This document shows, piece after piece, positions 53,960 through 58,770 of a stretch of 64,000 nt of DNA. The position numbers and the translations under genes were made by a program. Each line of letters starts with the position of its first letter. The stretch's first letter is position 1. Below the pieces are notes generated by a model that saw nothing but the letters and a program-made list of their open reading frames with translations, made no database searches and had not been told where the DNA came from. The DNA comes from Lama glama (lineage: Eukaryota), in contig CM052816.1 in assembly GCA_028534125.1 (NCBI GenBank), positions 31,622,001 through 31,686,000 of the forward strand, written 5' to 3'.

Positions 53960-55960
53960 TTATTAATAAACTTACAAATACCTAAATATAAAAACTGAAA
54001 ATATAAAGCTTGTGGAAGAAACATAGGAGAAAACTTTTTCTACCTTGGGTTAGGTAAAAGATTTCTTGAAAAGTCAAGAAAAGCCTGAACCATACGAAGA
54101 AAATGTTGATAAAATGGACCTCGGCAAAACTGCAAACTTTTGCTTTTTGAAAGATGCTGTTCAGGAAATGGAAAGACAAATTATAAACCTCAGAATGAGA
54201 GTAAAACTTTATAAAAATATATCTGATTAAAAATTTACAGCTAGAATATTTAACCAAAAAACTTTAACACTCAATAATTTAAAAAAACAGTAAAAATAAG
54301 CAAAAGATTTGAACAGATACTTCACCAAAGAAGATACACAGATGTCAAATCAAAAAATGAAAAAACGTTCAAAATACCTAGTTATTAGAGAAATGCAAAT
54401 TAAAAATACAATGAAAAAATGTCACAACCAAAATGAACCTAAGGATTCATGACAACTTAATGTAATTTGTTATTCCAGATAGCATCCTAGAATCTGGGAA
54501 AACCTAAGGAAATCTAAATAAAGTACTGAATTTAATTAGTGATAATGTATTAATATTAACTCATTATTGTAATAAATATGTTTTACTAATATAAGATGTT
54601 ACATACAGGGGAAACTGAGTATAGGATATACGGAAACTTTCTGTATTTCAGTAAATCAAAATCTTTCAGTAAATCAAAATCTTTCAGTCAAAAGACTGTT
54701 CGAAAAAATAAAATCTATTAAACACACACACAAATCCCTATTACAATGACTATACCAAGTGTTGATGAGGATGTGGAGATACTAGCACTCTCATATACGG
54801 CTGACAGGGATGTAAAATAGTACAACTGTGCAAAACAGTTTGACAAAACAAAATCTAACTAAAAAAAATAAACTTGTATCCAGAATACATTTTTTAAAAC
54901 TCTTATAATGCAATAGCAAGAAGATAACCCCGAAAAAATGGACAGAAGATGTGAACACATACTTTATCAAAGAAGGTATACAGATGCCAATAAGCACGTG
55001 AAAAGATATGGAACATCGTTATTCATTAGGAAAACATAAATTAATAACTACCAACAAAATATAACTATAGTGTAAAAGGGCTAAATTTTAAAAGACTTAT
55101 GATACCAATTACTGGTGAAGGTGCAGAACAACTTAGAAGTCTCATATACTGTTGGCGAAAGTGTAAAATAGTATACTAGTATAGCCCATTTGTAAAACAG
55201 CTTGCTTGTTTCACATGAAGATGAATATACATTTACCATACAGCTCAGCAATTCCTCTTCTGGGTATTTATCCTAGAGAAATGAAAACATCTGTCCATAC
55301 AAAGACTTGTATGTAAATGTTTACAGCAGCTTTGTTCTATTAGCCAAAACCTGGAAAGAACCCAAATGTGTATCAACAAATGAATGGACTGGCATAGATA
55401 AACAAACTATAGTACATCATATGACAGAATTTTACTCAGAAATAAAGGAATGAACTATTGATACATGCAAAGATATCAGTGACTCTCAAAACCATTACGC
55501 TAAGTTAAAGAAGCTGGACAATAAAAGCAATATACTATATATTTCGTCTATACGGCATTCTGGAAAAAGCAAGACCATAGGGGTGGAAATCATCCCAATG
55601 GTTATCAAAGGCTAAAGGATGGCAGAGGAGATTGACTGACTGCAAAGGGGCATGAGTCACTTTTTATGCTGATGAAAATTTTACATATCTTCTTTTTGAA
55701 GCAAAATCAATTACAATGTGTCAATTTCTGGTGTACAGCACAATGTCCCAGTCATGCATATACATACATATATTCGTCTTCACATTTTTCTAAAGATTAT
55801 TACATAATATTGAACATAGTTCCCTGTGCTATACAGAAGAAACTTTTTATATATCATGATTATAGTGGTGGTTACATATTTAACAAAACTCACTGAACTA
55901 CACACATGAGAAGAATAAATTTTATTTTATGTAAAGAATGCCACCAAATACCTTTTTAAA
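53960..55960 (+). mobile_element. Old L1M 3' regions (several pieces), with a small minus-strand L1 3' end inserted at ~55690-55845
   Basis: AAAAGATTTGAACAGATACTTCACCAAAGAAGATA, AGCAATTCCTCTTCTGGGTATTTATCC, TGAACTATTGATACATGCA; the small insert is flanked by TTTTA(C/T)ATATC. Confidence 0.75.
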
Positions 55961-56091
55961 AATGAGGCAAACATTAGAAAGAAAAAAAAAACACACTTGC
56001 AGGAGAGAGATAAAAGGAATTTGAAATACGTTAGTGAAAACATTAAGGCTTTCCAGGCACTAAATCTGAAGGACTCTGAAAGATTAATAGA

Positions 56092-56170
56092 GGCCAGTGA
56101 TGAGGACTTCTCCCACTCCTGTCACGTTTCCCAACCATGAGATGACTCCACATCCACTACCATCTGAGGC
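56092..56170 (+). ncRNA. SNORD33: Retroposed copy of box C/D snoRNA SNORD33 (probably non-functional)
   Basis: Box C GTGATGA 56097-56103, box D CTGA 56164-56167, terminal stem. Body ACTTCTCCCACTC...CCATGAGATGACTCCACAT.CACTACCATCTGAGGC matches SNORD33 as I recall it, and it lies directly upstream of RPL13A exon 5, as in the native host gene. Confidence 0.9.
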
Positions 56171-56676
56171 TGCCTGGCTGCCTGCCTACTTGCGGCAGCA
56201 GGGGCCTTGCGCGCCACGCCCCCTGAGCCAGCCTGCTGTCCTCTGCCCACAGGCATGCTGCCCCACAAGACCAAGTAAGGCCAGGCCTCTCTGGTCTGCC
56301 TCAAAGTGTCTGATGGGATCCCGCCACCCTATGACAAGGTCTCTAAACCCCTCTCCTTCCCTAACAGAAAAAGTGGATGGTGGTTCCCGCCGCCCTAAAG
56401 GTCGTGTGTCTGAAGACTACAGGGAATTTTGCCTACCTAGGGTGCCTGGCTCATGAGGTTGGCTGGAAGTGCCAAGCAGTAACAATCACCCTGGAAGAGA
56501 AGAGAGGAAGGAAAAGGCCACGATCCATTACCGGAAGAAGCAGCTCATGAGGCTACAGAAGTAGGCTGAAAAGAATATACAGAACAAAATCGACAAATCC
56601 ACAGAGGTCCTCAAGACCCATGGACTCCTAGTCTGAGGCCAGGAAAATTGACTGTTTATTCTTTAAATAAATAATA
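56092..56676 (+). pseudogene. RPL13A: Partially processed RPL13A retrocopy (SNORD33 + 3' intron 4 + exons 5-8 + A-rich tail)
   Basis: Encodes GMLPHKTK*G...[34 protein letters not shown] and TEVLKTHGLLV* (TGA 56634-36), with premature stops. TSD AAAGATT(A/G)ATAGA at 56079-91 and 56677-89. Confidence 0.95.
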
Positions 56677-58770
56677 AAAGATTGATAGAAATGTATGTGG
56701 TAAAGGAGAGAAGTGATGGGTGTGTGCAGAGAGTGTTCCACATAGGGAGTGCGGTCTGCACAGAGGATTGATGGCAGCAAGAAATAGGGCGCATCCCGAC
56801 CTGGGGAAATGACAGTAAACCACGGTGGCTGGGCACTGACAGCAGTGCTAGACATAGATAGGACCGAATTTCACAGTATCAAGTACAAAAGGTAGGGTAC
56901 AGTTTTCCAGTTTACTGAGCTGAATGGACAATGGTATACCTCCTCATGCAGGTACAGCAGCTTTGCAAGAGAAGATCATGAGTCTGTTCTTGTACATGTC
57001 AAGTAAAAGTTTCCTGGAGGTGCTACAAATATGACAAATAAGGCAACTGGACAGTTGAGGTTAAGTCATATAAAATCTCTAATAGTCAGCCACCTTGACC
57101 TACAAAAGGCAACTCATATGTTTTGATCTAGTAAGTTCCCAGAGCTCCTGTCCAACCAAGAGTGATATTAGTACCTTTATTTTAAAAAGAGAAAATGCTG
57201 AGTATTCTTCAAGTAAAATTATTATACCAATCACACTTCATAATATAGAGCCTTTTATGAAGAATATATAAGATTCAAAGTTGCATATGATGTGAAATAT
57301 ACTTTATGCATCATGTATTTTTGGCAGTAGCTATTAATCAATTCCTTTCGAAACAAATTAAAGTAATTATGATCCATCATAGATGTTGATATAAATAACT
57401 AAGGGAATTTGGAAAAGAAGTAATTCACCACTGGAGATTTGCCAATAAATAAATTCTTCAAGTATGACTCATGGTTGTTCCTCTGAGATCAGTTAATTAC
57501 TTCTGTAAGTCAAACTCCAGCTTCCGTAAACTCAAATAACCTGTCAATTTTTTTTCTGTTGTAATATTATTTCATGCAAAATGATACTAATTATTATTTA
57601 ACTGTAGGTAGGCACATTCTTCACCAACTTCATAACAGAATAGGTTTTAAGAGATAACTCATAGGCTCCAGATCAAGAAAATAACGTGGGAAGATCCTGA
57701 GCTCACATTCTACCATAGACACAACAAAACTACAACTACCTATTTCCACAACTGTCTCTGTAAACGACCTGGGGACTACCAGAACTGTTCTACAACTCAG
57801 GATACAAAGAAAAGGTCATACTGAAATAAAAAGGTGGGGGCAGAGACACAGTCTAATCTGAACCCACACCCCCAGTGTGGTGACCCCCAGATGGTAGGAG
57901 AAATCACAACCTTGAAGTTCCCCACTGAGGAGTAAGGGGTCTGAGCCCTGCATCAGGCTCACAGCCCTGGGTACCTGCACCAGGAAGACAAATTCCCAAA
58001 ATATCTGCCTGAATCCCAGCAGGGCTTACATTCAGGAGAGCCAGAGGGCTATGGTAAACGAAGACTCTGCACTTGAAGGGCTCCCACAGAAACTCACTTG
58101 CTCCCAGTCCAAGCACAGAGGCAGTCTGGGTCATAGGAGAAGGATATTCACTGCCCAGTTTTAGGGCATGTGCCAGAGGGGCAGGGATCTGGTGGAACTT
58201 TCTCCAGGGACAGAAACACTGGCAGGAAACTTTTTTTTTTAAACGCTCCTTTCACCTAGCTAGCAGGTACCATTTTTCTTACTCTCATCATCTCCATCAT
58301 TCTAAGCTAATAGCTTATGCCCCACTCTGGTGTTCCCCTGAGTACCCACCCTGCCCAGCCTATCCATCTGGGCCAACCCCTCCAAATCAATTCCCACCCT
58401 GCCCCACCCAGCAGGCCATCTCGGCCAGCACCAATGTCCCTCCAAATCCTGCTCTGCCTCACCCAGCAGGTAGCCCAACAAACACCAGCATTCCTCCAAA
58501 ATGGCTCCCACTCCTGGGATCTATCCCTGCACACCAGCTTACCAGTGACAGGTGAGGCCAGGCCTTATAGACACTTGCATTGGGGGTCAGCCCCATGTAT
58601 CGGTGCACCTGTAGTAGCCTTGGACAGGCCTCACAGATGGCCAGTCTGAGGACAAGTCCTGCCCACCATGCGTTCACAGCAGTTGCATCTGAGCCTCGCA
58701 GCCAGCTAATCTCAGGGTCAATCCTGCCTACCAGCACATCCTCGGCAATCATGGCCCAACCATAAAAGGA

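What the first reader, a model, noticed from the sequence alone, without database searches (positions are those of the whole stretch)
56079..56689. Fossil of a snoRNA-capped, polyadenylated RPL13A RNA (SNORD33-intron 4-spliced exons 5-8)
Seen: a 13-bp TSD (1 mismatch) brackets an insert that starts 5 nt before box C (GGCCA-GTGATGA). It contains the whole snoRNA, ~82 nt of intron ending CTGCCCACAG (56252), an 86-nt exon (56253-56338), exons 6/7/8 joined without introns, the 3' UTR and an A-rich tail. Known: SNORD33 sits in RPL13A intron 4, mature C/D snoRNA 5' ends lie about 4-5 nt before box C, and snoRNA-capped polyadenylated RNAs and snoRNA retrogenes carrying host exons are known as general classes. 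Inference: the template was an RNA whose 5' end was trimmed back to, and protected by, the SNORD33 snoRNP while intron 4 stayed unspliced and downstream introns were removed. Random 5' truncation landing on this nucleotide is unlikely. It points to a splicing-independent SNORD33 processing route or an SPA-type RPL13A decay product, present in the germline or early embryo.
Basis: partly seen in the sequence, partly recalled or inferred. Interest (0 to 1): 0.88.

Follow-up and report, generated by a model that had tools for sequence, protein, structure and literature searches.

The report
SNORD33-led RPL13A retrocopy (Type-3 snoRT)
This is a decayed retrocopy of a ribosomal-protein RNA that began exactly at the start of an intronic snoRNA, a kind of element described in 2006, so it is a tidy but largely ordinary example.

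Summary
Window 56092-56676 is a retrocopy of the species' own RPL13A gene, flanked by a 13-bp target-site duplication (12 of 13 match). Homology to the parent starts at GGCC, 5 nt before box C of SNORD33 (Rfam 67 bits), and nothing upstream matches. It then runs through the rest of intron 4, exon 5, exons 6-8, the proximal poly(A) site and a 12-nt A-rich tail.

29 nt of intron 5 lie between exons 5 and 6. In the parent they follow an upstream AG, so an alternative 3' splice site was most likely used. That isoform is frameshifted and NMD-eligible.

The inference of a snoRNA-5'-ended, polyadenylated template is well supported. It matches the "Type-3 snoRNA retroposon" defined by Weber (2006), who proposed the same cut-and-trim mechanism.

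The same genome holds three more C/D snoRNA retrocopies: SNORD36/RPL7A (Type 3), SNORD35A (Type 1) and SNORD14 (Type 2). All four start 5 nt before box C.

What is modestly new: the case is C/D-box (Weber searched H/ACA only), the RPL13A/SNORD33 instance has not been found in print, and the +29 junction is unusual. No RNA evidence could be obtained. Verdict: new member of a known kind; interest about 0.3.

The parts
56079..56091 (+). 5' target-site duplication, AAAGATTAATAGA
   Evidence: 12 of 13 identical to 56677-56689. On the top strand it is preceded by TG, giving TG|AAAG, a loose match to the L1 endonuclease ttAAAA consensus quoted by Weber 2006.
56092..56173 (+). SNORD33 copy. Box C GUGAUGA, box D CUGA and the terminal stem GGCC/GGCU are intact.
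   Evidence: RF00133, 67 bits against a cut-off of 44; 76 of 82 aligned bases identical to parent SNORD33 (parent scores 87.2 bits), plus a 1-nt deletion. One G>C change lies 10 nt before box D, in the stretch that I recall to be the rRNA guide.
56174..56252 (+). Rest of RPL13A intron 4, from the snoRNA 3' end to the 3' splice site CTGCCCACAG
   Evidence: 62 of 70 aligned bases identical to parent L004 1658-1589, with 9 inserted bases in the copy.
56253..56338 (+). Exon 5 (86 nt), carrying an in-frame TAA at 56276-56278
   Evidence: 75 of 86 identical to the parent; the translation shows MLPHKTK*.
56339..56367 (+). Last 29 nt of intron 5, joined directly to the end of exon 5. This is a footprint of an alternative 3' splice site 29 nt upstream of exon 6.
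   Evidence: The parent reads ...CTTCACTCCAG|GCCTCTAAG...CCCTAACAG|AAAAAG. The 143 nt between (the 5' part of intron 5, including SNORD34) are absent.: +29 nt gives a stop 140 nt before the last exon junction.
56368..56427 (+). Exon 6 (60 nt)
   Evidence: 51 of 59 aligned bases identical. It joins exon 7 cleanly.
56428..56549 (+). Exon 7 (122 nt in the copy, 123 nt in the parent; indels of +2 and -3)
   Evidence: 110 of 120 aligned bases identical.
56550..56664 (+). Exon 8 with the stop TGA (56634-56636) and the short 3' UTR up to the proximal poly(A) site. AATAAA has decayed to GGAAAA.
   Evidence: 105 of 114 aligned bases identical. Homology ends where the parent continues CACGCTTGG.
56665..56676 (+). 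Decayed A-rich tail, AAATAAATAATA
   Evidence: It is not present in the parent. Its border with the TSD is ambiguous by up to 3 A.
56677..56689 (+). 3' target-site duplication, AAAGATTGATAGA

Best explanation
This is an L1-type (target-primed) retrocopy, now a decaying pseudogene, of an aberrant RPL13A RNA.

Features of the template RNA:
- Its 5' end was the mature 5' end of SNORD33, in intron 4.
- It kept the remaining roughly 80 nt of intron 4.
- Exon 5 was spliced to an alternative 3' splice site 29 nt upstream of exon 6. That removed SNORD34 and most of intron 5.
- Introns 6 and 7 were spliced normally.
- It was cleaved and polyadenylated at the proximal RPL13A poly(A) site.

Shown directly: the anatomy, the exact start of homology, the TSD, the tail, the splice junctions, and the RNA-mediated origin.

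Inferred: the pre-mRNA, or an intron-4-retaining mRNA, was cut upstream of the snoRNA. A 5'-3' exonuclease then trimmed it until it was blocked by the assembled C/D snoRNP. The result was a snoRNP-capped, polyadenylated RNA, which the L1 machinery copied in the germline or early embryo.

This is Weber's Type-3 snoRNA retroposon, here for a C/D-box snoRNA. The template works like an SPA or cSPA RNA.
For: 1. RNA-mediated copy.
- Exons 6/7 and 7/8 are joined exactly at the parent's splice sites, and the 12-nt A-rich tail sits at the parent's poly(A) site.
- The 13-bp TSD matches at 12 of 13 positions. The chance rate is 2 of 62,588 window positions.

2. The 5' end is at the snoRNA end.
- Parent homology starts at GGCC, 5 nt before box C, and the flanks are unrelated upstream.
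- The snoRNA is complete (RF00133, 67 bits, model positions 1-85).

3. The same 5' rule recurs in this genome.
- Six C/D families were searched (RF00133, RF00211, RF00147, RF00049, RF00212, RF00016). Four gave one off-locus copy each and two gave none.
- 4 of 4 off-locus copies begin 5 nt before box C, with parent homology ending there:
  - SNORD33 (this window);
  - SNORD35A on C15, with about 14 nt of intron, a short A run and the TSD AGTTCAGCAA;
  - SNORD36 on C4, with the rest of an RPL7A intron, three spliced exons, A12 and a 15-bp TSD;
  - SNORD14 on C10, with the whole downstream intron and A7.

4. Fit to the known class.
- Weber 2006 (PMC1687206; sections 5, 8, 13 read) defines Type-3 snoRTs by exactly this anatomy.
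- He proposes endonucleolytic cleavage followed by exonucleolytic trimming to the snoRNA 5' end.
- He also reports one rat U69 case with a cryptic splice.

5. SNORD33 is known to cap longer RNAs.
- A sno-lncRNA with SNORD33 at its 5' end and SNORD34 at its 3' end, containing RPL13A exon 5, is abundant in mouse ES cells (Zhang 2014, PMC4234469; passages read).

6. The +29 junction is most likely a splice.
- Its left edge is the exon-5 donor.
- Its right edge follows an AG preceded by a pyrimidine-rich run in the parent.
Against: - No RNA of this form was observed.
- The mature 5' end of SNORD33 in this species was not measured. That C/D snoRNA ends lie 4-5 nt before box C, and that the human SNORD33 annotation starts GGCC, come from recall.
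- No orthologous empty site could be examined, because no related genomes are held. The flanks are single-copy in this genome, so no paralogous empty site exists either.
- The +29 junction reads GACAAG|GTCTC in the copy but would be GACAAG|GCCTC after splicing. That needs one C>T change. A deletion after the intronic GT would need no substitution.
- The family searches scored only 58-108 of 53,614-607,440 first-look candidates each. The census of copies is therefore a lower bound, and 4 of 4 is a small sample.
- The insertion site TG|AAAG is only a loose match to the L1 consensus.
Confidence: 0.85

Rival explanations
1. Ordinary 5'-truncated retrocopy. L1 reverse transcriptase copied a capped, intron-4-retaining RPL13A pre-mRNA and happened to stop or disengage at the first nucleotide of SNORD33.
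For: 5' truncation is common in L1-mediated copies (established knowledge). Other RPL13A retrocopies in this genome have various 5' extents. One old copy on C26 (L036) begins within the last 4-6 nt of SNORD35A, so RT-related ends near snoRNAs do occur. Weber also mentions truncated versions.
Against: - Landing on one given nucleotide out of the roughly 1,000 or more available upstream has odds of about 1 in 1,000.
- The same nucleotide relative to box C is the start of 4 of 4 off-locus C/D snoRNA copies found.
- An RT stalled by the snoRNA structure or snoRNP would stop at its 3' side, not after copying all of it.
Confidence: 0.07
2. Same Type-3 retrocopy, but the 29-nt piece is not a splice footprint. 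The template retained all of intron 5, with SNORD34, and a later genomic deletion (or an RT jump) removed 143 nt.
For: A break after the intronic GT reproduces the observed GACAAGGT|CTCTAA without any substitution. AGG microhomology flanks both sides. The copy has other indels (21 gap columns).
Against: - The left edge falls within 2 nt of the exon-5 donor.
- The right edge falls within 2 nt of an AG that follows a pyrimidine-rich run (CTTCTCCCGTCTGTCCTTCACTCCAG).
- Both coincidences are expected for splicing and unlikely for a random deletion.
- One C>T change is unremarkable at 9.7% overall divergence.
Confidence: 0.12
3. Template-switch chimera. L1 RT copied a 5'-truncated, partly spliced RPL13A RNA and then jumped onto a free mature SNORD33, as in U6- or U3-mRNA chimeric retrogenes.
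For: Such chimeras with full-length small RNAs at the 5' side exist (cited in Weber 2006, Discussion).
Against: The snoRNA-intron junction is colinear with the parent gene, with no break, filler or duplication. A jump would have had to occur exactly at the snoRNA's 3' boundary. The SNORD36 and SNORD14 copies are colinear too.
Confidence: 0.01

Closest known systems
Type-3 snoRNA retroposons (snoRTs) of Weber 2006, PLoS Genet 2:e205 (for example U70/RPL10, U17, U69/Rpl39)
   Same: [quoted passage not shown] It is ribosomal-protein hosted. The same proposed origin applies: a cut in the pre-mRNA, then trimming to the snoRNA 5' end. One published case also shows a cryptic splice.
   Different: Weber's search covered H/ACA snoRNAs and scaRNAs only. 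RPL13 and U33 do not occur in the main text; his supplementary .doc figures and table could not be read. Here the snoRNA is C/D box, three exon junctions lie downstream, and one of them is a frameshifting alternative 3' splice site.
SPA lncRNAs (SPA1, SPA2) and the cytoplasmic SNORD86 cSPA of NOP56
   Same: These are RNAs with a C/D snoRNP in place of a cap at the 5' end and a normal poly(A) tail. They are made when a 5'-3' exonuclease is blocked by the snoRNP. The cSPA arises from an alternatively spliced, NMD-cleaved host transcript (reviews PMC10557570 and PMC11028025; passages read).
   Different: Those are observed RNAs with assigned functions. Here only a DNA fossil exists. The host is RPL13A, and no RNA, protein binding or exonuclease dependence was tested. 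The 2024 review counts only three known SPAs.
RPL13A-region sno-lncRNA (SNORD33...SNORD34) of mouse ES cells, Zhang et al. 2014
   Same: Same gene and the same 5' cap (SNORD33). It contains the intron-4 remainder and exon 5, depends on alternative splicing of RPL13A, and is seen in a pluripotent cell type.
   Different: The sno-lncRNA ends at SNORD34 and is not polyadenylated. The fossil lacks SNORD34, continues through exons 6-8 and has a poly(A)-derived tail.
Ordinary RPL13A processed pseudogenes
   Same: L1-type retrocopies of the same gene. At least six intronless copies are in this genome.
   Different: Those lack snoRNA and intron sequence. This one starts inside intron 4, at the snoRNA.

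Membership tests
Type-3 snoRT (Weber 2006) | [quoted passage not shown] | tested here: met
   Homology to the parent starts at GGCC, 5 nt before box C, and the flanks are unrelated upstream. The position of the mature end is taken from the general C/D rule (recalled), not measured in this species.
Type-3 snoRT (Weber 2006) | Contains the entire intron sequence downstream of the snoRNA | tested here: met
   56174-56252 aligns to parent L004 1658-1589, up to the 3' splice site CACAG.
Type-3 snoRT (Weber 2006) | [quoted passage not shown] | tested here: met
   Exons 5-8 are present. Junctions 6/7 and 7/8 are canonical. Junction 5/6 carries 29 nt of intron 5 from an upstream AG. Weber reports comparable cryptic-splice variants.
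Type-3 snoRT (Weber 2006) | A-rich tail at the host gene's poly(A) site | tested here: met
   AAATAAATAATA lies directly after the point where parent homology ends, 18 nt past AATAAA. It is short and decayed.
Type-3 snoRT (Weber 2006) | Target-site duplication of 7-19 bp bracketing the insert, at an L1-type site | tested here: met
   13 bp, 12 of 13 matching, with an empirical chance of 2 in 62,588. The site TG|AAAG only loosely resembles ttAAAA.
Type-3 snoRT (Weber 2006) | Insertion shown by an orthologous empty site in a related species | not testable with these tools
   No related genomes are held (header). The flanks are single-copy in the own genome.
SPA / cSPA RNA (as the template) | An RNA molecule with a snoRNP-protected, uncapped 5' end and a poly(A) tail, detectable in cells | not testable with these tools
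Only the DNA copy implies such a molecule.
sno-lncRNA | snoRNAs at both ends and no poly(A) tail | tested here: not met
   SNORD34 is absent from the copy (RF00147 hits only the parent; see also the alignment). An A-rich tail is present.
SNORD33 (Rfam RF00133) | Covariance-model score above the gathering cut-off, with boxes C and D and the terminal stem | tested here: met
   67 bits against a cut-off of 44. Whether the copy is expressed or functional was not tested. It carries 6 substitutions and 1 deletion against the parent.

The most novel reading that the evidence does not exclude
Type-3 C/D snoRTs such as this one may be genomic fossils of a widespread, mostly unseen class of SPA/cSPA-like RNAs. 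These would be made from ribosomal-protein host genes (RPL13A, RPL7A and others) in germline or early embryonic cells. Lacking a cap, and so untranslated, such RNAs would be immune to NMD. That would explain why an otherwise NMD-doomed +29 splice isoform survived long enough to be retrocopied. On this view retrocopies give a free census, across mammals, of which snoRNAs cap long poly(A)+ RNAs. C/D snoRNAs would also spread by borrowing the host's poly(A) tail, despite the current view that they rarely retrotranspose.
Probability: 0.35. Interest if true: 0.55.

Novelty: new member of a known kind. Interest (0 to 1): 0.3.

Why it matters
The element is a decaying pseudogene with no sign of function, so its value is as a record of an RNA species.

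- It shows that an RPL13A RNA capped by SNORD33, partly unspliced, mis-spliced at intron 5 and polyadenylated once existed in germline-competent cells.
- Together with the SNORD36/RPL7A copy, it shows that Weber's Type-3 route also operates for C/D snoRNAs. Recent reviews hold that C/D families grow mainly by cis recombination and that H/ACA snoRNAs are the retrotransposing class (PMC8178906). Only three SPA-type RNAs are counted as known (PMC11028025).
- A systematic census of such fossils could point to further snoRNA-capped RNAs worth looking for. That is a useful lead, not a surprise to specialists.

Tried and rejected
The existence of the +29 junction and of SNORD33-started reads remains open.
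- Earlier notes of this scan: nothing held.
- Paralogous empty site. A search with window 55500-57300 found only a repeat at about 55676-55900 and the RPL13A copies. The immediate flanks are single-copy, so no empty site could be inferred.
- Other RPL13A-derived copies carrying the +29 piece: none. Among the matches, only the window and the parent cover that stretch.
- SNORD34 and SNORD38: no off-locus copies were found, with 68 of 311,831 and 64 of 289,436 candidates scored.
- SCARNA7-like hit at 58192-58296 on the minus strand (26 bits against a cut-off of 65). Read and judged a chance match.
- Template-switch chimera and DNA-level duplication: rejected because the copy is colinear with the parent and the exon junctions are spliced.
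- The C26 copy (L036). I tried to define its L1 context. The result was complex and I did not resolve it.
- Literature. Searches (and 11, 39 for SPA/NMD) listed no paper describing a SNORD33/RPL13A retrocopy or Type-3 snoRTs of C/D snoRNAs. This covers only the open library searched. Weber's supplementary .doc files could not be read.
- Wrongly formatted search terms gave errors.
Full report
**What is in the sequence**

Window 56079-56689 was read directly. Rfam finds a complete SNORD33 at 56090-56173 on the + strand: 67 bits against a cut-off of 44, model positions 1-85, with box C GUGAUGA and box D CUGA.

The window lies in a 2.35-Gb assembly at C1:31622001-31686000. The species' own RPL13A gene lies on C12 and was read as L004 on the minus strand. 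That locus has the arrangement recalled from human:
- SNORD32A-like, SNORD33, SNORD34 and SNORD35 sit in four different introns.
- An intronless 99%-identical copy (L002) encodes a Ribosomal_L13-family protein.
- L002 matches the locus in seven pieces, exons 2-8. This places SNORD33 between exons 4 and 5.

**Alignment to the parent**

Homology begins at window 56092, GGCC, 5 nt before box C. The 11 bases before that point are unrelated: GACAGGTGGGT in the parent, GATTAATAGA in the window.

| Segment | Window | Identity to parent |
|---|---|---|
| SNORD33 | 56092-56173 | 76 of 82 |
| Rest of intron 4, to CACAG | 56174-56252 | 62 of 70 |
| Exon 5 | 56253-56338 | 75 of 86 |
| 29-nt piece | 56339-56367 | 26 of 28 |
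| Exon 6 | 56368-56427 | 51 of 59 |
| Exon 7 | 56428-56549 | 110 of 120 |
| Exon 8, to the proximal poly(A) site | 56550-56664 | 105 of 114 |

- The proximal poly(A) site lies 18 nt after the parent's AATAAA.
- A 12-nt A-rich tail follows exon 8, and then the second copy of the 13-bp TSD.
- Overall, 505 of 559 aligned bases are identical (K2P 0.104).
- The TSD matches at 12 of 13 positions. Only 2 of 62,588 window positions show so good a repeat at that spacing.
- The copy is dead as a gene. It has a TAA in exon 5, indels in exon 7 and a decayed poly(A) signal.
- The snoRNA part shows no clear excess conservation over the intron part (92.7% against 88.6% on small samples).

56339-56367 is the last 29 nt of intron 5. 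The parent reads ...CTTCTCCCGTCTGTCCTTCACTCCAG|GCCTCTAAGCCCCTCTCCTTCCCTAACAG|AAAAAG. The copy joins the end of exon 5 to the base after the upstream AG. It omits 143 nt that include SNORD34.

The simplest reading is use of an alternative 3' splice site. In the parent this isoform would be frameshifted, with a TGA 140 nt before the last exon junction. By the usual rule, recalled here, it would be NMD-eligible if translated. The junction needs one C>T change to fit. A later deletion after the intronic GT fits without a substitution, but it requires both edges to fall on splice signals by chance. I give the splice reading about 0.8.

**How it arose**

The spliced junctions, tail and TSD show an RNA-mediated, L1-type insertion. 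The key question is whether the 5' end reflects the template or a chance RT stop.

Three points favour the template:
- The copy starts on one specific nucleotide.
- An RT blocked by the snoRNA would stop on its 3' side, not after copying all of it.
- The same rule recurs in this genome.

I searched six C/D families in the own genome. Each search scored only 58-108 of 53,614-607,440 first-look candidates, so the counts are lower bounds. Four families gave one off-locus copy each, and SNORD34 and SNORD38 gave none. All four copies start 5 nt before box C, with parent homology ending there:
- SNORD33, in this window.
- SNORD35A on C15, with about 14 nt of intron, a short A run and a 10-bp TSD. 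This is Type 1.
- SNORD36 on C4, with the rest of its intron, three spliced exons of an L7Ae-family gene, A12 and a 15-bp TSD. It is 92-97% identical to its parent. This is Type 3.
- SNORD14 on C10, with the whole downstream intron up to the 3' splice site and A7. It is about 70% identical to its parent. This is Type 2.

A fifth, old RPL13A-derived copy on C26 begins within the last 4-6 nt of SNORD35A. It carries the rest of intron 6 and exons 7-8. It may be an RT-truncated Type 3.

**What is known**

Weber (2006, PMC1687206) defined exactly this anatomy as the Type-3 snoRT. He proposed that the host pre-mRNA is cut and trimmed back to the snoRNA 5' end while the 3' part is spliced and polyadenylated. 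He noted that such elements had been mis-annotated as ribosomal-protein pseudogenes, and he described a cryptic-splice variant (sections 5, 8, 13 and 19 read).

His search was restricted to H/ACA snoRNAs and scaRNAs. RPL13 and U33 are absent from his main text. His supplementary .doc files could not be read.

Later literature bears on the template RNA:
- SPA1, SPA2 and the SNORD86 cSPA of NOP56 are real RNAs with a C/D snoRNP at the 5' end and a poly(A) tail. The cSPA comes from an alternatively spliced, NMD-cleaved host transcript (passages of PMC10557570 and PMC11028025).
- In mouse ES cells, SNORD33 caps a sno-lncRNA containing RPL13A exon 5 and ending at SNORD34 (passages of PMC4234469).
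- Current opinion holds that C/D families expand mostly by cis recombination (passages of PMC8178906).

My searches listed no description of a SNORD33/RPL13A retrocopy or of C/D Type-3 snoRTs. This covers the open library only.

**What could not be done**

- No RNA evidence.
- No related genomes are held, and the flanks are single-copy. So there is no empty-site test and no firm date.
- With a recalled neutral rate of about 2x10^-9 per site per year, the 9-14% divergence suggests tens of millions of years. This is rough.
- Whether the cut and trimming were nuclear (SPA-like), cytoplasmic (cSPA/NMD-like) or part of splicing-independent snoRNA processing cannot be told from DNA.
- An in-frame stop of an intron-4-retaining mRNA would lie inside SNORD33 itself. 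This does not settle the route.

**Verdict**

The element is a new member (C/D box, RPL13A/SNORD33) of a kind known since 2006. Interest 0.3.

Noticed in passing
L063 (G000 C4:74448033-74451107), minus strand, about L063 985-1575: A younger Type-3 snoRT of a C/D snoRNA. It has SNORD36 (65.8 bits), the rest of its intron, three spliced exons of an L7Ae-family (RPL7A-type) gene and A12. The TSD is AAAAGTAGCTTGATT / AAAAGTACCTTGATT. It is 92-97% identical to the parent on C26 and starts 5 nt before box C.
   Followed up: yes
L039 (G000 C15:20742339-20745435), minus strand, L039 about 1480-1610: A Type-1-like retrocopy of SNORD35A (56.8 bits). It derives from RPL13A intron 6, not from the second SNORD35 copy 6 kb from RPL13A. 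It has about 14 nt of intron and a short A run, the TSD AGTTCAGCAA, and box D mutated to CTAA.
   Followed up: yes
L071 (G000 C10:9987080-9990169), minus strand, L071 about 1360-1590: An old (about 70% identity) Type-2-like retrocopy of a SNORD14 copy. Its parent lies in a three-copy cluster on C31, next to an exon ending ...PTIEEVD (Hsc70-like by recall). It has the snoRNA, the whole downstream intron to the 3' splice site, CGGGGG and A7. No clear TSD was seen.
   Followed up: partly
L036 (G000 C26:8886391-8889664), + strand, L036 about 1499-2166: An old RPL13A-derived copy that begins within the last 4-6 nt of SNORD35A. It carries the rest of intron 6, exon 7 (interrupted by about 265 nt of L1 ORF2-like sequence), exon 8 and an A tail. 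The TSD is AAGAAGAAATAAT / AAGAAGAAATAGT, and it sits inside an L1 ORF2. Its structure was not fully resolved.
   Followed up: partly
L002 (G000 contig C313377, 1397 bp): An intronless RPL13A copy, 96-99.6% identical to the parent exons. It has an open 206-codon frame, starts at a CTTTCC (TOP-like) 5' end next to unrelated AT-rich DNA, and carries the long 3' UTR running to the contig end. It is either a very recent full-length retrocopy or an assembly oddity.
   Followed up: partly
window 55676-55900: An interspersed repeat with at least 36 other copies at 83-90% identity in the genome. It looks like an L1 3' end by eye (recalled, not tested). The retrocopy inserted about 180 bp downstream of it, in single-copy DNA.
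   Followed up: no
window 58192-58296, minus strand: A weak SCARNA7-like Rfam match (26 bits against a cut-off of 65, E 0.0025). It covers only a box-C-like AUGAUGA start and an A10 run. Judged a chance match.
   Followed up: partly
G000 C12:4940263-4940353, minus strand (L043): A second SNORD35-family gene (74.8 bits) about 6 kb from RPL13A on the same strand. This is consistent with the SNORD35B/RPS11 neighbour recalled from human. The host gene was not checked.
   Followed up: no
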